This document shows positions 1 to 12,591 of a DNA stretch of 24,231 nucleotides, piece by piece. Position numbers and translations under genes: made by a program. The stretch lies in the IMG/VR virus record IMGVR_UViG_2690315980_000001; one strand, written 5' to 3'. Below the pieces are notes generated by a model. It was not told the origin of the DNA, made no database searches, and saw only the letters and a list, made by a program, of their open reading frames with translations. Each line of letters begins with the position of its first letter. Position 1 is the first letter of the stretch. This DNA is from a virus (taxonomy: Duplodnaviria > Heunggongvirae > Uroviricota > Caudoviricetes).

Positions 1-46
1 CTACGGGTTAAAAGCCCGTTGCTCTAACCTACTGAGCTAACGACAC
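1..46 (-). tRNA. tRNA-Lys(UUU), 5' part only, truncated by the window edge
   Basis: Identical to the matching part of the full copy at 809-885; anticodon arm ACGGG-CT TTT AA-CCCGT. Confidence 0.9.
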
Positions 47-50
47 AAAG

Positions 51-127
51 TGGCGGGTGATCTAGGACTTGAACCTAGCACCTGTTGGTTAACAGCCAAC
101 TGCTCTAACCAGATGAGCTAATCACCC
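51..127 (-). tRNA. tRNA-Asn(GUU), copy 2
   Basis: Cloverleaf; anticodon arm GTTGG-CT GTT AA-CCAAC; G73; encoded CCA. Confidence 0.95.
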
Positions 128-133
128 TAAGTT

Positions 134-209
134 TGGTTCCACCTGCTGGACTTGAACCAGCGACCTTACCCTTATCAGGGGTATGCTCTACCAACTGAGC
201 TAAGGCAGA
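134..209 (-). tRNA. tRNA-Ile(GAU)
   Basis: TACCC-CT GAT AA-GGGTA; T-arm GCTGG TTCAAGT CCAGC; encoded CCA. Confidence 0.95.
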
Positions 210-216
210 ATTAAAA

Positions 217-292
217 TGGCGGAGATGACGGGGATTGAACCCGCGACCTCTTGCGTGACAGGCAAGCGTCATAACCACTAGACTACATCTCC
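217..292 (-). tRNA. tRNA-Asp(GUC)
   Basis: CTTGC-CT GTC AC-GCAAG; acceptor GGAGATG/CATCTCC; G73; CCA. Confidence 0.95.
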
Positions 293-297
293 AAATG

Positions 298-373
298 TGG
301 AGCACTGTGGCAGATTTGAACTGCCGAATAATGGATTTGCAATCCACCCTCTTAACCACTTGAGTAACAGTGC
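298..373 (-). tRNA. tRNA-Cys(GCA)
   Basis: GTGGA-TT GCA AA-TCCAT; U73 Cys identity element; CCA. Confidence 0.95.
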
Positions 374-374
374 A

Positions 375-450
375 TGGTGCATCCTACTGGTCTCGAACCA
401 GTGACCTCTTCTTTGTAAGAGAAGCGCTCTCCCAACTGAGCTAAGGACGC
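375..450 (-). tRNA. tRNA-Val(UAC)
   Basis: CTTCT-CT TAC AA-AGAAG; CCA. Confidence 0.95.
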
Positions 451-455
451 GTAAC

Positions 456-531
456 TGGTGGAGGCAAAGGGAATCGAACCCTCGACAACTGACTTGCAAA
501 GCCAGCACTCTACCTACTGAGTTATACCCCC
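456..531 (-). tRNA. tRNA-Ala(UGC)
   Basis: CTGGC-TT TGC AA-GTCAG; G3:U70 alanine identity pair present; CCA. Confidence 0.95.
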
Positions 532-536
532 AAAAA

Positions 537-612
537 TGGTGCCTCGAAGTGGAATTGAACCACTGACGCGAAGATCTTCAATCTTCCGCTCTACCAACTG
601 AGCTATCAAGGC
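537..612 (-). tRNA. tRNA-Phe(GAA)
   Basis: GAAGA-TT GAA GA-TCTTC; CCA. Confidence 0.95.
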
Positions 613-613
613 A

Positions 614-690
614 TGGTTCCCCTTGCTGGACTCGAACCAGCGACCACATGATTAAAAGTCACATGCTCTAACCAACTGAGCTAAAGAGGA
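614..690 (-). tRNA. tRNA-Lys(UUU), second sequence type (A31-U39)
   Basis: TGTGA-CT TTT AA-TCATG; body differs from 809-885; CCA. Confidence 0.95.
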
Positions 691-728
691 ATTATTTCTA
701 AAGCACTCTCGTAAAAGCACTTGAGAAA

Positions 729-804
729 TGGCACTGCCAACGAGGATCGAACTCGTGTTACAAGCTTGAAAGGCTTGTGTCCTAACCAACTAGACGATAG
801 CAGC
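729..804 (-). tRNA. tRNA-Glu(UUC)
   Basis: CAAGC-CT TTC AA-GCTTG; short variable loop; CCA. Confidence 0.95.
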
Positions 805-808
805 GCAA

Positions 809-885
809 TGGTGTGTCGGGCAGGAATCGAACCTGCGACCTACGGGTTAAAAGCCCGTTGCTCTAACCTACTGAGCTAACGACAC
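809..885 (-). tRNA. tRNA-Lys(UUU), G31-C39 type
   Basis: ACGGG-CT TTT AA-CCCGT; U7/C66 mismatch in the acceptor stem; CCA. Confidence 0.93.
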
Positions 886-889
886 AAAG

Positions 890-966
890 TGGCGGGTGAT
901 CTAGGACTTGAACCTAGCACCTGTTGGTTAACAGCCAACCGCTCTAACCAGATGAGCTAATCACCC
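890..966 (-). tRNA. tRNA-Asn(GUU), first gene of the array
   Basis: Same as 51-127 apart from one base (tRNA position 26); CCA. Confidence 0.95.
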
Positions 967-1167: not shown

Positions 1168-1271
1168 AAGAACAAAAAGCCCAGTGAAACTTAAGGAAGT
1201 CTCACTGGGCTAATCATAGCTTATGTGTAGTTTGAGACTTCCGCCTCAACCACTTTTAAGTATGAGGCAAA
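1168..1271 (-). terminator. Attenuator of leader L1: alternative hairpins plus intrinsic terminator
   Basis: Terminator AGCCCAGTGAGACTT-CCTT-AAGTTTCACTGGGCT followed by TTTTGTTCTTT (stem 1178-1211). Perfect 10-bp antiterminator GGAAGTCTCA (1233-1242) / TGAGACTTCC (1195-1204). Upstream GCCTCA/TGAGGC hairpin (1263-1268/1243-1248). Confidence 0.85.
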
Positions 1272-1397
1272 TCAAGTTGTAATTTCGATCTTATTATCCA
1301 CGTTCATTTTTTTCGCACAGCAAATATCAGCCGCAATTGCGTTAAACATCGCATCGCACTTCTCAATTTTTACTGTCGTAAATGTCGTGATAAACAT
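1272..1397 (-). CDS. Leader peptide L1, 41 aa MFITTFTTVKIEKCDAMFNAIAADICCAKKMNVDNKIEITT
   Basis: Translated by hand; SD AGGA in AGGATTTTATT-ATG; stop abuts the attenuator; not in the ORF track. Confidence 0.8.
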   Translation of the reverse strand: MFITTFTTVKIEKCDAMFNAIAADICCAKKMNVDNKIEITT

Positions 1398-1429
1398 AAT
1401 AAAATCCTGATAAATGGTTTTTTTAATAC

Positions 1430-1523
1430 AAAAAAGTCAGCTTAGCTATCGCCTCGCTGACTATATACAAGAAAATCTTGAAATCTTTGAGGCAACCCTC
1501 AAAGATACAATTATCCTGAAGGT
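1430..1523 (-). terminator. Attenuator of leader L2: alternative hairpins plus probable intrinsic terminator
   Basis: AGTCAGC(14-nt loop)GCTGACT followed by TTTTTG (1430-1462); perfect ATCTTTGAGG-GTTG-CCTCAAAGAT hairpin (1483-1506); competing CCTTCAGGATA/TATCTTTGAGG (1512-1522/1497-1507). Confidence 0.7.
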
Positions 1524-1628
1524 TTAAATATTGTTTTTACAGTCAAATTTCTTGTCTGTATTCTTCTCACAGGCAAACATATTGTCTGTGTTTGTTTCAA
1601 TCGTATTTTTCGCGATGATAATAAACAT
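1524..1628 (-). CDS. Leader peptide L2, 34 aa MFIIIAKNTIETNTDNMFACEKNTDKKFDCKNNI
   Basis: Translated by hand; SD-like AGGT upstream; same restricted amino-acid alphabet as L1; not in the ORF track. Confidence 0.75.
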   Translation of the reverse strand: MFIIIAKNTIETNTDNMFACEKNTDKKFDCKNNI

Positions 1629-1689
1629 AACATTACCTGTGAGTTAAAAAGTAGTTTTAAGTGTTAGGCTCTTGCCTTCCGATGAATTA

Positions 1690-1719
1690 ATAATAAACCT
1701 AAATGTTTTTTCAGGTCAA
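1690..1719 (-). promoter_or_regulatory. sigma70 promoter for the L2-L1-tRNA transcript
   Basis: TTGACC-18 nt-TATTAT on the minus strand, just downstream of the 1755-1786 terminator. Confidence 0.6.
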
Positions 1720-1796: not shown

Positions 1797-2897
1797 TTAC
1801 AAAACTTTATTTTTTGCGTTTTTTTCACCAAACTTATAGTTTTTCAACTTGAAGTTGTTTTGTAGTCGCTCTTCCAACACTCCCTCGTCATTAAAAACTA
1901 ACTCTTTTCCTTCATAATACCAGGTAGATGTTCCACCTATTGGTTGAGAAAGATCATATTTAACCGATGGGTCAAACAACTTATAAGGATTAAATCTGGT
2001 AGATTTTGAATGCTCAGTGCGGTCAAATTGATAGTTGTATTCTACTCTTTCTGGCGCACCTAGAGAAAGAAACACTTCAACCTTGTTCATACCATAATTA
2101 ATCTCGCTAGACTTAATGCTGGAGTGGTGAGCCTTATGGACTAAAGGAGACTTCAACGGATCTTTGTATACAATTCTGTTGATATCAAAAGGAACATTTA
2201 CCCTTTCACCATCATCAAGTCTAACCACAAAACTAAATTGTGATTCATCTAATCCATACCCCGTATTTAACGAGTAATCAATTTTTTCAACTTTTAGGGG
2301 TTGGTTATGTGGTACTCTAATGGTATCAGAGCTGTTCGTTCCATATACTGAGGTATTTGTTTTATCAGCCCCTCGCCCTAAGACATAAATCGCCTTACCC
2401 ACATGCTCTTCAGCGGCTTTCAAGTCTGAGTTGTGGATTAACTGTAGTTGTGATTGCATTTGTCTAAATGGAAAAACACCATCCCTATCATCATTATTCT
2501 TATCAAATACTGATGCAAAATTTCCGTATTCAGGAATAACCACTTCAATGGATTTACAATTATCCAAAACACCAGAATAAACACGATAGTATCTAAGCTT
2601 ACCAGGCTCATTAGGATCTTCATCTGTTTTTTGAATGAAACTAGTTGTATCGATTTTTAAATCACGACCATAAATATCTGATTCGGTTAGAGGTGTCTTT
2701 TGATATCTTTCATACAAGTATGAGTAAGAGTCTTGAGGAAGGTTATTCATTCTATTATTGAACTTGAGTTCGGCAGAGACATTCCCCGCTTCGAACTCAA
2801 GCCCACGAATAACTTTGTAATTGCATTCGCTTGCGAATGCTGAAGATGAGATAACGCCAATAGCTAGGGCTATAGTCGTTTTTAGAAATTTATTCAT
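1797..2897 (-). CDS. Exported hypothetical protein with a C-terminal BamE/SmpA-like motif
   Basis: Sec signal peptide ending SAFA-SEC; GMNKVEVFLSLGAP resembles the SmpA/BamE-domain motif. Confidence 0.6.
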   Translation of the reverse strand: MNKFLKTTIALAIGVISSSAFASECNYKVIRGLEFEAGNVSAELKFNNRMNNLPQDSYSYLYERYQKTPLTESDIYGRDLKIDTTSFIQKTDEDPNEPGKLRYYRVYSGVLDNCKSIEVVIPEYGNFASVFDKNNDDRDGVFPFRQMQSQLQLIHNSDLKAAEEHVGKAIYVLGRGADKTNTSVYGTNSSDTIRVPHNQPLKVEKIDYSLNTGYGLDESQFSFVVRLDDGERVNVPFDINRIVYKDPLKSPLVHKAHHSSIKSSEINYGMNKVEVFLSLGAPERVEYNYQFDRTEHSKSTRFNPYKLFDPSVKYDLSQPIGGTSTWYYEGKELVFNDEGVLEERLQNNFKLKNYKFGEKNAKNKVL

Positions 2898-7433: not shown

Positions 7434-8945
7434 TTAATCTTGCTTGCTTAATTCGATTCTAGGAAACTCTCGAACTTTTTCAATTTGGTTAATATCAACT
7501 CGCACGATACCATCAGACAAGCTCAGTTTAGCTTCGCCTTCTTTTAGATGATTCACGCTAGTAACAAGTGTTTCATCCTGGTTAACTAATGAGTATCCCT
7601 TATTTAAGATAGCAATAGGGTTGTTCATCATAATCATCATTAGCTTTTCTTTACGAATATTATCCGCTGAAACAAGAGTATCTTTTGATATCGAAGATAT
7701 AGATGTGATTTTTTGGTCAAGAGCGTTTCTTGCTCTCTCAATCACGACTGCACTGTTATCAATAATTCTTGACACCTTACTGTCCAATGCGCTTTTTGCA
7801 AGCAATACGCTTTTTTCGGACAAGCTTATGATTCTTTCGAAATTTCGAGCATCCTTCTCTGATGATGAAATGATTACATCTCTAATCATATTTACTACCA
7901 TCGAAGGTGTTGCACATCTGGTATGTGCAATTTCATCTATAATTGTATTATCTCTTTCATGCCCGATACCGCAGAATATCGGCGCATTAAGACATAGCAG
8001 CGATTTAGCTATTTCATACTCATTTAAGGCATATAAACCTGCTTTATCACCACCACCACGAATCACACATACCGCATCGAATGGATTTCTTTCATGATCA
8101 GCATTTATCTTACTCACTGCTGAAGTGATCGTGTTTATGGAGTTATTCCCCTGGAAAGTTGCAGAATAATAACTGAATTTACATAGACCTAAACTATCCA
8201 AAAGTGATGATTGCGTCTGAAAGTCACCCAAGCCAGCAGCCATATCTGGAGATAGAACAGCAACTCTGAAAAAGTTATCTGGTGCCTTCATTCTCTTGTT
8301 GTTAAGAAATATTCCCTCAGATCTTAATCTATCTCTAATTGCATTTAGCTTTGCTTCCATCTCACCGATAGTAAATGATGGGTTGATATCAATGATGTTC
8401 AGACTTAAGCCGTACTTCTCACTGAACTCAGGCTTTACACAGATTAGAACCTTCATGTTATGAGCCAGCTTCATGCCTGTTGAACGCTCAAATTTGCTAA
8501 TAATGTCTTTTCTCTTGCTCCAAATCATACCTCTAGCTTTCGCCAATTCAGAGCCATTCGAATCATAATCAGAAAGCTCTAGGTACACATGTGAGCTACC
8601 AGTAATATTTGAAATTTCAGCAGTAAGCCATGAGCCTTCAGTGAAGGTTTCTTCCATAAGGTTTTTGATTACACCCAAATATACTGACAAGCTCGATGGC
8701 TTATTGCTCTGCTTGTTCAGCATATGCTGAAACTTGGGTGTCCACCATTTCTTGAAAACGGTAACATCAATGCCTTTTGGTACGTACCAACAAACAAACG
8801 CACCATTACTTGAGTAAGGTAAAGCACCTAGTCTTTTTGCTTCTTCACGCTCCCCATATGGGACTTCGAGCCGTAATTTTCTATCTAGAATCATTGAAAT
8901 CTCCATTTTTAGTAAATTATACATGAAATCTATCCCGTAAACCAC
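7434..8945 (-). CDS. xseA: Exodeoxyribonuclease VII large subunit with an N-terminal DUF5710-like domain (probable start at 8894)
   Basis: WLTAEISN, HVYLEL, YGLSLNI.DI.PSFT.G, AAGLGDF, IRGGG, GIGHERD, TPS; N-terminal LEVPYGEREEAKRLGA; GGAG SD before 8894. Confidence 0.92.
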   Translation of the reverse strand: MVYGIDFMYNLLKMEISMILDRKLRLEVPYGEREEAKRLGALPYSSNGAFVCWYVPKGIDVTVFKKWWTPKFQHMLNKQSNKPSSLSVYLGVIKNLMEETFTEGSWLTAEISNITGSSHVYLELSDYDSNGSELAKARGMIWSKRKDIISKFERSTGMKLAHNMKVLICVKPEFSEKYGLSLNIIDINPSFTIGEMEAKLNAIRDRLRSEGIFLNNKRMKAPDNFFRVAVLSPDMAAGLGDFQTQSSLLDSLGLCKFSYYSATFQGNNSINTITSAVSKINADHERNPFDAVCVIRGGGDKAGLYALNEYEIAKSLLCLNAPIFCGIGHERDNTIIDEIAHTRCATPSMVVNMIRDVIISSSEKDARNFERIISLSEKSVLLAKSALDSKVSRIIDNSAVVIERARNALDQKITSISSISKDTLVSADNIRKEKLMMIMMNNPIAILNKGYSLVNQDETLVTSVNHLKEGEAKLSLSDGIVRVDINQIEKVREFPRIELSKQD

Positions 8946-11842: not shown

Positions 11843-11911
11843 GTGAAAGCTAAAACATTTATTACCTCTAAAGTAGGTATCCAGCAACCGTGGCAACAAG
11901 CTTATGTGTAA
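11843..11911 (+). CDS. Leader peptide L3, 22 aa MKAKTFITSKVGIQQPWQQAYV (GTG start)
   Basis: SD AAGGA in AGGATTTTATT-GTG; codons CAG CAA CCG TGG CAA CAA at 11882-11899; stop lies in the first hairpin of the attenuator. Confidence 0.85.
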   Translation: MKAKTFITSKVGIQQPWQQAYV

Positions 11912-11997
11912 GTTTTAGCTTTCGCATGGCTAAAACTTAGGTTTTAGCCACAGGAAAGACACCTAACCCCTGATGGCTCTCCATCAGGGGTTTTTTT
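11909..11997 (+). terminator. Attenuator of leader L3: alternative hairpins plus intrinsic terminator
   Basis: A:B TAAGTTTTAGC/GCTAAAACTTA (11 bp); B:C TGGCTAAAAC/GTTTTAGCCA (10 bp); C:D AGCCACAGG/CCTGATGGCT; terminator AACCCCTGATGG-CTCT-CCATCAGGGGTT followed by TTTTT. Confidence 0.88.
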
Positions 11998-12116
11998 ATG
12001 CTTAAAAAATTCAGATGGAATAAAGTCAACTTATCTCTGCATATCTATGCTGGAGAGGAGGTCTTGTGGTTTTAGTGTAAGTGCTTGATTTTATTGAATT
12101 TTTTTTAATTTTCTTG

Positions 12117-12145
12117 TTGACAGATAAAATGTTCAGGTTTAATAT
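12117..12145 (+). promoter_or_regulatory. Near-consensus sigma70 promoter immediately upstream of tRNA-Pro
   Basis: TTGACA-17 nt-TAATAT. Confidence 0.75.
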
Positions 12146-12169: not shown

Positions 12170-12246
12170 CGGTGAATAGCGCAGCCTGGTAGCGCATCTG
12201 CTTTGGGAGCAGAGGGTCGAGAGTTCGAATCTCTCTTCACCGACCA
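12170..12246 (+). tRNA. tRNA-Pro(UGG), copy 1
   Basis: TCTGC-TT TGG GA-GCAGA; C1-G72, A73; CCA. Confidence 0.95.
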
Positions 12247-12257
12247 AATTATATTGT

Positions 12258-12334
12258 TGGGGTGTAGCCAAGTTGGTTTAAGGCAATAGACTTTGATTCT
12301 ATGAACGGGGGTTCAAGTCCCTCCACCTCAGCCA
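12258..12334 (+). tRNA. tRNA-Gln(UUG), copy 1
   Basis: ATAGA-CT TTG AT-TCTAT; U1-A72, G73; CCA. Confidence 0.95.
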
Positions 12335-12346
12335 GAACAACAAAGT

Positions 12347-12422
12347 GTAGAGGTAGCTCAGTTGGTAGAGCATCGGATTCCAAACCCGCTGGTCGGGGGT
12401 TCAACTCCCTCCCTCTATGCCA
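12347..12422 (+). tRNA. tRNA-Trp(CCA)
   Basis: Acceptor GTAGAGG/CCTCTAT; loop TT CCA AA; G73; CCA; anticodon stem has two mismatches. Confidence 0.88.
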
Positions 12423-12426
12423 CATT

Positions 12427-12503
12427 CGGTGAATAGCGCAGCCTGGTAGCGCATCTGCTTTGGGAGCAGAGGGTCGAGAGTTCGAATCTCTCTTCACCGA
12501 CCA
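12427..12503 (+). tRNA. tRNA-Pro(UGG), copy 2
   Basis: Identical to 12170-12246. Confidence 0.95.
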
Positions 12504-12514
12504 AATTACATTGT

Positions 12515-12591
12515 TGGGGTGTAGCCAAGTTGGTTTAAGGCAATAGACTTTGATTCTATGAACGGGGGTTCAAGTCCCTCCACCCCAGCCA
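12515..12591 (+). tRNA. tRNA-Gln(UUG), copy 2
   Basis: One acceptor-stem difference from copy 1 (C12585 vs T12328). Confidence 0.95.

What the first reader, a model, noticed from the sequence alone, without database searches (positions are those of the whole stretch)
1178..1522. All three leaders share an inverted five-segment logic: stall anywhere gives read-through
Seen by eye in each leader: segment A at or just after the stop pairs with B; B alternatively pairs with C; C alternatively pairs with terminator segment D. L1: A:B 1263-1268/1243-1248; B:C GTGGTTGAG/CTCAAACTAC 1245-1253/1227-1236; C:D 1233-1242/1195-1204. L2: A:B 1512-1522/1497-1507; B:C 1497-1506/1483-1492; C:D GTTGCCTC/GAGGCGAT 1489-1496/1448-1455 (pairs into the terminator loop). 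L3: A:B 11909-11919/11929-11939; B:C 11927-11936/11941-11950; C:D 11946-11954/11969-11978. Inference: a ribosome that reaches the stop masks A, so B:C and the terminator form. A ribosome delayed at any earlier codon leaves A:B and C:D, so transcription continues. Classical attenuators need the stall to sit on segment 1. This parity removes that positional limit and would explain how a long leader can poll many tRNAs.
Basis: partly seen in the sequence, partly recalled or inferred. Interest (0 to 1): 0.87.

Follow-up and report, generated by a model that had tools for sequence, protein, structure and literature searches.

The report
Default-on attenuators before plasmid tRNA arrays
On a giant Vibrio plasmid, tiny test genes in front of tRNA gene blocks are followed by a chain of competing RNA hairpins that, in folding simulations, stops transcription only if a ribosome finishes the test gene in time; this is a variant of the classic attenuator that could sense slow decoding of many codons at once.

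Summary
All nine helices are at the stated coordinates. RNA from the stop codon to segment D folds as A:B + C:D. RNA that includes the terminator 3' arm folds as B:C + terminator. Both folds are far more stable than shuffles.

I wrote a cotranscriptional folding simulation. It reproduces E. coli hisL well, and trpL and thrL roughly.
- L1 and L2 (the stretch 1178-1522) terminate when the ribosome sits on the last two codons or the stop.
- They read through when the ribosome is stalled at 30 of 40 (L1) or 18 of 33 (L2) sense codons.
- They also read through when untranslated, the opposite of the E. coli controls.
- This is robust to footprint, rate constants, transcription speed and three other haplotypes.
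- Mutating A in silico abolishes read-through.

L3 has the same chain plus upstream segments that capture A. It terminates when untranslated or stalled early, and its result depends on the parameters. "All three" and "anywhere" are therefore overstated.

The chain equals segments B-F of the his attenuator without the protector segment. It is a new variant of a known kind. Only about four near-identical haplotypes exist, so covariation cannot be tested.

This scan has already noted tRNA-array leader attenuators on other DNA.

The parts
1690..1719 (-). Promoter-like site TTGACC-18-TATTAT in front of L2. No promoter-like site lies between the L2 terminator and L1, so L1 is probably reached by read-through of L2.
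1524..1628 (-). Leader ORF L2, 34 codons plus stop (MFIIIAKNTIETNTDNMFACEKNTDKKFDCKNNI). AGGU lies 7 nt before the AUG.
1512..1522 (-). L2 segment A, starting 1 nt after the stop codon. It is covered by a terminating ribosome.
1497..1507 (-). L2 segment B. It pairs with A (10 pairs, one mismatch) or with C (perfect 10 bp).
1482..1496 (-). L2 segment C. 1483-1492 pairs with B. 1489-1496 pairs with D. 1482-1485 pairs with 1459-1462.
1448..1462 (-). L2 segment D. GAGGCGAU (1448-1455) lies in the terminator loop, and AGUC (1459-1462) overlaps the terminator 5' arm.
   Evidence: G1450 to A in other haplotypes turns a U.G pair into U-A.
1430..1461 (-). L2 intrinsic terminator: GUCAGC...GCUGAC followed by a U tract.
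1272..1397 (-). Leader ORF L1, 41 codons plus stop. It uses only M F I T V K E C D A N, exactly the tRNA specificities of the downstream array.
1263..1268 (-). L1 segment A (GCCUCA), 3 nt after the stop codon.
1243..1253 (-). L1 segment B. 1243-1248 pairs with A. 1243-1253 pairs with C.
1227..1242 (-). L1 segment C. 1227-1238 pairs with B. 1233-1242 pairs with D.
1195..1204 (-). L1 segment D (UGAGACUUCC), the antiterminator 3' strand. It overlaps the terminator 5' arm.
1173..1211 (-). L1 intrinsic terminator: 15-pair stem followed by a U tract.
1..966 (-). Start of the tRNA array controlled by L2 and L1. The near-identical plasmid has 37 tRNAs here: N K E T M F A V C D I.
11843..11911 (+). Leader ORF L3 (GUG start; VKAKTFITSKVGIQQPWQQAYV) plus stop. 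11843-11856 also pairs with 11912-11925 and acts as a protector of A.
11909..11919 (+). L3 segment A. It begins with the stop codon.
11927..11939 (+). L3 segment B. It pairs with A (11 bp) or with C (10 bp).
11941..11954 (+). L3 segment C.
11965..11999 (+). L3 terminator and U tract. Segment D (11969-11978) lies in its 5' arm.
12170..12591 (+). Pro-Gln-Trp-Pro-Gln tRNA array downstream of L3.

Best explanation
L2 and L1 are two ribosome-dependent transcription attenuators in series in front of a tRNA array on a ~0.9-Mb Vibrio plasmid. Each has five RNA segments after the leader ORF. A starts within 6 nt of the stop codon. B, C and D follow, and E is the terminator 3' arm.

Hairpins form in the order they are transcribed:
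- If A is free, A:B forms. C then pairs with D and the terminator cannot form, so transcription reads through.
- If a ribosome is on the last two codons or the stop codon, it covers A. B then captures C, D stays free and D:E terminates.

There is no coding-region 'protector' that sequesters A. The untranslated or slowly translated leader is therefore 'on' by default. Termination needs a ribosome to finish the ORF before D has emerged, about 75 nt of RNA past the stop. The leader thus works as a race with a deadline. It adds up delays at most codons of the ORF, which is written only in the amino acids of the downstream tRNAs.

L3 has the same chain but also upstream partners for A. It behaves more like a classical, position-dependent attenuator, as do the two leaders before the Tyr/Ser/Leu/His array.

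Shown: the helices, their significance, and the two alternative folds. Simulated only: the order of folding, the effect of ribosome position, and the deadline. Inferred: translation of the ORFs, regulation in vivo, and the feedback on the tRNA supply.
For: Helices and folds:
- The helices are at the stated coordinates.
- Stop-to-D RNA folds as A:B + C:D. Full RNA folds as B:C + terminator. Both have z between -3.5 and -7.6.

Cotranscriptional master-equation simulation (my script):
- L1: P(term) = 1 at codons 40, 41 and stop, and 0 at codons 1-4, 11-18 and 22-39. Thirty of 40 sense codons give read-through.
- L2: P(term) = 1 at codons 33, 34 and stop, and 0 at codons 5-9, 16-19 and 25-32.
- With no ribosome, L1 = 0 and L2 = 0 (0.18 after 5 s).
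- Same method on E. coli controls: hisL reads through only at His codons 11-13 and terminates when untranslated; trpL reads through at W11/R12; thrL reads through at its Thr/Ile codons. All three terminate untranslated. This matches the published trp model (PMC4615214).

Robustness for L1 and L2: footprint 9-15 nt, k0 2e4-2e6, 10-50 ms/nt and three other haplotypes.

Role of A: A mutants give P(term) 0 to 1.0 in L1 and L2.

Barriers: A:B to B:C costs 8.7-12 kcal/mol. Antiterminated to terminated costs 10.6-18.7 kcal/mol.

Late-arrival runs: a sharp deadline at stop+~75 nt (L1) and stop+~72 nt (L2).

Out-of-sample leaders: L4a and L4b on the same plasmid also have A just after the stop, then B:C, C:D and a terminator.

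Context: the L1 alphabet equals the set of array tRNAs. All amino-acid changes among L1 haplotypes stay in that alphabet.
Against: - There are no experimental data. The simulation is home-made: static ribosome, RNA behind it removed, no RNAP pausing, no Rho, 37 C nearest-neighbour energies.
- The controls are reproduced only qualitatively. thrL codons 10 and 14-16 and trpL W10 come out wrong or weak.
- At equilibrium the full-length RNA always forms the terminator.
- For L1, masking A does not change the pre-terminator equilibrium fold. Everything rests on kinetics.
- Some stall positions terminate: L1 codons 5-8, and L2 codons 2-4, 11, 14 and 20-22, with intermediates.
- L3 and L4a depend on the parameters.
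- No covariation is available. A, B-core, C, D and E are invariant in the ~4 haplotypes, and the L3 leader is 100% identical in them.
- Only the outer part of L1 B:C varies, without clear compensation.
- The L1_Cmut change (GGAA to AAUU) did not abolish read-through.
Confidence: 0.5

Rival explanations
1. These are classical, position-dependent attenuators. Only stalls in the window just upstream of A matter in vivo, roughly the last 8-10 codons before the final two. RNAP pausing and coupling keep ribosome and polymerase in step. The restricted alphabet further upstream only avoids sensing unrelated tRNAs. The 'default-on' state of untranslated RNA is never met, or is prevented by Rho or by structures the model misses.
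For: - L3, L4a and L4b behave this way in the same simulation. Their read-through windows are codons 13-15, 9-11 and 14-15, and they terminate when untranslated.
- L3 and L4b have explicit upstream partners for A.
- L2 has several terminating positions.
- The robust read-through block next to A spans codons 22-39 in L1 and 25-32 in L2.
Against: - L1 and L2 have no coding-region partner for A. They read through when untranslated and at most early codons. hisL, trpL and thrL do not.
- L1 uses only the array's 11 amino acids over all 41 codons, and substitutions keep to that alphabet. This points to selection on all codons.
Confidence: 0.27
2. The hairpins are not a translation-sensing switch. 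They are constitutive partial terminators, or processing and stability elements of the tRNA precursor. The short ORFs are not translated, or their translation is irrelevant.
For: - There is no experimental evidence for translation.
- A consensus-like promoter (TTGACA-17-TAATAT, 12117-12145) lies between the L3 terminator and the tRNAs, so that array may not depend on L3.
- No Rfam family matches.
Against: - Five leaders on one plasmid are each written in the amino acids of their own array.
- Shine-Dalgarno-like AGGA or AGGU lies 7 nt before the starts.
- Two mutually exclusive folds are each far more stable than shuffles.
- A sits within a terminating ribosome's footprint in all five leaders.
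- Shuffled spacers rarely switch.
Confidence: 0.1
3. The sign of the logic is reversed or mixed. Stalling uncouples the ribosome from RNAP, exposes naked RNA and causes Rho-dependent or hairpin termination. Slow decoding would then lower tRNA transcription.
For: Some early stall positions terminate in the simulation. Rho was not modelled.
Against: - It would be a positive-feedback collapse with no obvious use.
- The leaders are A/U-rich and C-poor, so they are poor Rho loading sites (sequence).
- The antiterminator C:D is strong and forms when A is free.
Confidence: 0.05

Closest known systems
his operon attenuator (hisL; Rfam RF00514), E. coli/Salmonella
   Same: It is a chain of overlapping hairpins after a leader ORF. 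The first post-stop segment (his B) is covered by a terminating ribosome. Stalling gives B:C + D:E (antiterminator), and completion gives C:D + E:F (terminator).
   Different: L1 and L2 lack the his A segment, the protector that overlaps the control codons. Eleven amino acids are sensed instead of one. The product is tRNAs, not enzymes. There is no sequence or Rfam match.
trp operon attenuator (trpL; Rfam RF00513)
   Same: It has a leader peptide, an antiterminator that overlaps the terminator 5' arm, a ribosome at the stop that favours the terminator, and a kinetic, cotranscriptional decision (PMC4615214).
   Different: trp has four segments. The stall must cover segment 1, and stalls one codon upstream or downstream do not work. 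No translation gives termination (PMC4615214). L1 and L2 have an odd number of segments and the opposite default.
Multivalent attenuators ilvGMEDA (ilvL) and thr (thrL; RF00506)
   Same: One leader senses several amino acids, and control codons are spread over many positions. thrL shows a broad read-through window in my simulation (codons 4-12 and 17-19).
   Different: thrL still terminates when untranslated. For ilvL I rely on my own knowledge. They sense 2-3 amino acids against 11. They control biosynthetic enzymes.
pheST (pheM leader) attenuator of phenylalanyl-tRNA synthetase
   Same: A leader-peptide attenuator controls a component of the translation apparatus according to the supply of charged tRNA (own knowledge, not tested here).
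   Different: It senses a single amino acid, has classical parity, and regulates a synthetase, not tRNA genes.
Leader-peptide attenuators in front of tRNA arrays of giant phages and megaplasmids, noted earlier by this scan (unpublished as far as searched)
   Same: The overall arrangement is the same: a short ORF written in the array's amino acids plus a switchable terminator.
   Different: None of the earlier notes I retrieved addresses the number or parity of segments, or the untranslated state. That is what was tested here.

Membership tests
Leader-peptide (ribosome-mediated) transcription attenuators | Short ORF with a start codon and ribosome-binding site upstream of the regulated genes | tested here: met
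   L2 is 1628..1524, L1 is 1397..1272 and L3 is 11843..11911. AGGU or AGGA lies 7 nt before the start. Translation itself is not shown.
Leader-peptide (ribosome-mediated) transcription attenuators | Control codons match the regulated product | tested here: met
   The L1 and L2 alphabets lie within the tRNA set of the array, N K E T M F A V C D I. L3 has QQPWQQ before Pro/Gln/Trp tRNAs. L1 haplotype substitutions stay in the alphabet. One exception: Asn to Ser in L2 of other haplotypes.
Leader-peptide (ribosome-mediated) transcription attenuators | Intrinsic terminator between the leader ORF and the regulated genes | tested here: met
   The L2 terminator is weaker: a 6-bp outer stem, not found by the pattern scan, but folded.
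Leader-peptide (ribosome-mediated) transcription attenuators | Antiterminator helix mutually exclusive with the terminator | tested here: met
   C:D overlaps the terminator 5' arm by 6-9 nt in L1 and 8 nt in L3. In L2 the antiterminator is composite.
Leader-peptide (ribosome-mediated) transcription attenuators | Covariation or conservation of the alternative helices among homologues | tested here: inconclusive
   Only about 4 haplotypes exist, 92-100% identical. The helix cores are invariant, and one U.G to U-A change occurs in L2 C:D. No relatives were found in genome or viral contig scans.
Classical (trp/his-type) parity | A protector segment overlapping the control codons sequesters the next segment, so an untranslated leader terminates (superattenuation) | tested here: not met
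   In simulation only. Untranslated L1 and L2 give P(term) 0, against 0.96-1.0 for trpL, hisL and thrL. The feature is met for L3 (0.81), L4a (1.0) and L4b (0.69).
Classical (trp/his-type) parity | Read-through only when the stall covers one defined segment | tested here: not met
   L1 reads through at 30 of 40 sense codons and L2 at 18 of 33. For hisL the figure is 3 of 15. In simulation only.
Rfam leader families (His_leader, Trp_leader, Thr_leader, Leu_leader and others) | Match to the covariance model at the gathering threshold | tested here: not met
   Only tRNA hits in the whole window.

The most novel reading that the evidence does not exclude
L1 and L2 are protector-less, default-on leader-peptide attenuators. 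They act as timers: transcription of a 37-gene tRNA array is shut off only if a ribosome crosses a 34- or 41-codon ORF, written in the array's 11 amino acids, before the polymerase has made segment D. The summed decoding delay over many different codons would then set tRNA synthesis, not a stall at one site. This would be a distinct design principle for multi-input sensing by attenuation, applied to tRNA genes of a mobile element.
Probability: 0.4. Interest if true: 0.8.

Novelty: new variant of a known kind. Interest (0 to 1): 0.6.

Why it matters
If it holds in vivo, it shows how one attenuator can poll many tRNA species. Dropping the protector hairpin and placing the first switch segment under the terminating ribosome turns a position-specific stall sensor into a sensor of total transit time.

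It also gives a sharp and simple test. Abolishing leader translation should raise expression here, whereas it lowers expression in trp, his and thr.

Finally, it would explain how a 0.9-Mb plasmid with 87 tRNA genes matches its tRNA output to demand. The design rule could be reused for synthetic multi-input attenuators.

Tried and rejected
- Equilibrium tests were not decisive. The full-length MFE always has the terminator. Masking A in pre-terminator RNA flips L2 and L3 but not L1, L4a or L4b. I therefore moved to kinetics.
- My first automatic terminator picker mis-assigned L4b, so I defined the terminators by hand.
- More distant homologues for covariation were not found. Plasmid BLAST found only 4 records. 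Scans with the neighbouring 366-aa protein found nothing in genome contigs or viral contigs. The nearest virus record G001 lacks the leaders. A protein search with the L1 peptide found 3 clusters at 88-93% identity. R-scape-type analysis is therefore not possible.
- The whole genome is not held.
- Background jobs do not survive between script calls. One scan timed out.
- Literature searches found no paper on leader peptides before tRNA operons or arrays.
- The L1_Cmut change (B:C loop GGAA to AAUU) did not remove read-through. The C:D helix tolerates loss of 4 of its 10 pairs in the model.

Full report
CONTEXT

The window is 99.9% identical to a 0.88-Mb Vibrio parahaemolyticus plasmid, NZ_CP097357. 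That plasmid carries 87 tRNA genes in a few arrays.

On the minus strand, a promoter-like site at 1719-1690 is followed by:
- leader ORF L2 (1628..1524, 34 codons) and a terminator at about 1461-1430;
- leader ORF L1 (1397..1272, 41 codons) and a terminator at 1211-1173;
- a tRNA array starting at 966.

In the near-identical plasmid this array has 37 tRNAs for N, K, E, T, M, F, A, V, C, D and I. These are exactly the 11 residues used by L1.

On the plus strand, L3 (GUG 11843 to UAA 11909-11911, with QQPWQQ) and a terminator (11965-11999) precede Pro/Gln/Trp tRNAs. No Rfam family other than tRNA matches the window.

This scan had already noted such leaders here and in several other phage and plasmid genomes. 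My task was the specific claim about a five-segment 'inverted' logic.

OBSERVATION

They range from 6 bp (L1 A:B) to perfect 10-11 bp (L1 C:D, L2 B:C, L3 A:B and B:C). A begins 0-6 nt after the first base of the stop codon, inside the 9-13 nt that a terminating ribosome covers.

Consecutive helices share 4-10 nt, so they exclude one another. A second short helix (1482-1485/1459-1462) covers the 5' arm.

With the standard folding tool:
- RNA from the stop codon to the end of D folds exactly as A:B + C:D in all three leaders (z -4.8, -3.5, -3.9).
- RNA including the terminator 3' arm folds as B:C + terminator (z -7.6, -5.7, -7.2).

The two alternative states are both real and non-random.

EQUILIBRIUM IS NOT ENOUGH

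The full-length MFE always contains the terminator, whether or not A is free. In RNA cut before the terminator 3' arm, masking A flips L2 and L3 from C:D to B:C. It does not flip L1, where the 10-bp C:D wins either way. As in trp, the decision has to be kinetic.

KINETIC TEST

I wrote a small cotranscriptional simulator with these properties:
- a master equation over local minima;
- new minima generated by constrained refolding;
- barriers from findpath, with k0 = 2e5 per s;
- 20 ms per nucleotide;
- RNA up to the ribosome's leading edge removed;
- read-out: terminator occupancy 0.16, 1 and 5 s after its 3' arm emerges.

The P(term) values below are the 0.16-s read-out unless another time is given.

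E. coli controls came from NC_000913.3. The method gives the textbook logic:
- hisL reads through only at His codons 11-13.
- trpL reads through at W11/R12.
- thrL reads through over most of its Thr/Ile codons.
- All three terminate at the stop codon, and all three terminate when untranslated.

The controls are noisy (thrL codons 10 and 14-16, trpL W10), so single positions should not be over-read. The published trp description agrees: no translation or smooth translation gives the terminator, and stalls one codon away do not help (PMC4615214).

RESULTS FOR L1 AND L2, THE STRETCH IN THE FINDING

L1:
- P(term) = 1 at codons 40, 41 and stop.
- P(term) = 0 at codons 1-4, 11-18 and 22-39.
- It terminates at codons 5-8.
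- Codons 9, 10, 19 and 21 are intermediate.
- Overall, 30 of 40 sense codons give read-through.

L2:
- P(term) = 1 at codons 33, 34 and stop.
- P(term) = 0 at codons 5-9, 16-19 and 25-32.
- It terminates at codons 2-4, 11, 14 and 20-22, with intermediate values (0.55-0.76) at 12, 13, 15, 23 and 24.
- Overall, 18 of 33 sense codons give read-through.

Untranslated L1 and L2 read through: P(term) is 0, and for L2 0.18 after 5 s. This is the opposite of the three controls.

The switch survives footprints of 9-15 nt, a 100-fold change in k0 and a 5-fold change in transcription speed. It also holds in the three other haplotypes.

Replacing A in silico turns read-through into termination: L1 0 to 1.0, L2 0 to 1.0 or 0.9, L3 0 to 0.92 or 0.83. 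One complement mutant of L1 gave 0.29. Shuffling the stop-to-terminator spacer gave switch-like behaviour in 1/20, 1/20 and 0/20 cases.

Direct-path barriers explain the trapping:
- A:B to B:C costs 8.7-12 kcal/mol.
- Leaving the antiterminated state costs 18.7 (L1), 14.4 (L2) and 10.6 (L3) kcal/mol.

In runs where the ribosome arrives late at the stop, L1, L2 and L4b still terminate if A is covered before D has emerged. The limits are stop+~75, ~72 and ~90 nt. After that they read through. The device is therefore a race with a deadline, and any delay that makes the ribosome miss the deadline counts.

L3 AND THE TWO EXTRA LEADERS

L3 has the neatest chain, but it also has upstream partners for A:
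- small hairpins from 11899-11908 also take A.

L3 terminates when untranslated (0.81) and for stalls at codons 1-11. It reads through at codons 13-15 and 18, but not at 16, 17 or 19. The pattern shifts with footprint and k0. Its antiterminator is not locked against a late ribosome. I call L3 inconclusive and closer to classical parity.

As an out-of-sample test I looked at the rest of the plasmid. The Tyr/Ser/Leu/His array is preceded by two more tandem leaders, MLHSYLHLSYLSLYN and MSYLSHLHYSLSYSLLST. Both have A just after the stop, then B:C, C:D and a terminator. Both terminate with the ribosome at the end.
- L4a reads through only for stalls at codons 9-11.
- L4b reads through at codons 14-15 robustly and at codons 2-11 partly.
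- Both terminate, fully or mostly, when untranslated. In L4b a UACGUA...UACGUA hairpin takes A.

The five-segment chain is general on this plasmid. The protector-less 'default-on' version is specific to L1 and L2.

COMPARATIVE EVIDENCE IS THIN

Only about four haplotypes exist.
- In L1, segments A, the B core, C, D and E are invariant. Changes fall in loops, spacers and the outer 5' strand of B:C, which varies without clear compensation.
- In L2, one change in D turns a U.G pair of C:D into U-A.
- In L4a, one change turns a G.U pair of the terminator into A-U and another breaks an end pair of C:D. L4b changes are all in a loop.
- The L3 leader is identical in all haplotypes.

This is compatible with constraint, but it is not covariation.

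WHAT IT IS LIKE

What L1 and L2 lack is his A (or trp 1), the protector that overlaps the control codons. The protector makes the untranslated leader terminate and ties the effective stall to one place.

'Inverted parity' is a fair shorthand, but the mechanism is a variant of a known kind, not a new kind.

I found no paper on leader peptides before tRNA operons. I did not find, and do not know of, a described natural leader-peptide attenuator whose untranslated state reads through. That last point rests on my own knowledge and a limited library.

CAVEATS
- There is no experiment.
- The simulator is home-made and ignores pausing, Rho, trailing ribosomes, ribosome release and temperature.
- A promoter-like site (TTGACA-17-TAATAT, 12117-12145) sits between the L3 terminator and its tRNAs, so that array may not depend on L3 alone.

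VERDICT

It is a new variant of a known kind. The decisive experiment is simple: knock out the leader start codon and see whether expression goes up or down.

Noticed in passing
window 12117-12145 (+): A consensus-like sigma-70 promoter (TTGACA-17-TAATAT, 10 of 12 matches) lies between the L3 terminator and the first tRNA-Pro (12170). The Pro/Gln/Trp array may be transcribed independently of the L3 attenuator.
   Followed up: partly
L005 (NZ_CP097357 105000-108600), minus strand about 2822-2420: Two more tandem leader ORFs, MLHSYLHLSYLSLYN and MSYLSHLHYSLSYSLLST, each with its own terminator. They sit before an 18-gene Tyr/Ser/Leu/His tRNA array and have the same A/B/C/D/E chain.
   Followed up: yes
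L004 (NZ_CP097357 37000-43200): The Gly/Arg/Ser/Met/Asn/Lys/Leu tRNA array shows no obvious leader ORF. TTGACA...TATACT lies directly before tRNA-Arg(ACG). Long gaps inside the array were not examined.
   Followed up: no
window 1535-1537 (-), L2 codon 32: In the other haplotypes AAC (Asn) is AGC (Ser). No tRNA for Ser is in the downstream array. This is the only exception seen to the restricted alphabet.
   Followed up: partly
window 1511-1633 (-): An overlapping 40-codon frame (MLCLLSSRK...) starts 5 nt upstream of the L2 AUG and ends with UAA inside segment A. Its AUG is only 2 nt from the AGGU, so it is probably not used.
   Followed up: no
window 1272-1280 (-) with 1186-1192 (-): The last L1 codons plus the stop (CAACUUG) can pair with the terminator loop and the start of its 3' arm (UUAAGUU). 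This adds a lock on the antiterminated state that a terminating ribosome would also cover.
   Followed up: partly
window 1797-2897 (-): A 366-aa ORF just upstream of the leaders has no Pfam match and no relatives outside these plasmids in the genome and viral contig scans.
   Followed up: partly
window 7434-8945 (-): A plasmid-borne exonuclease VII large-subunit homologue has an N-terminal DUF5710 domain.
   Followed up: no
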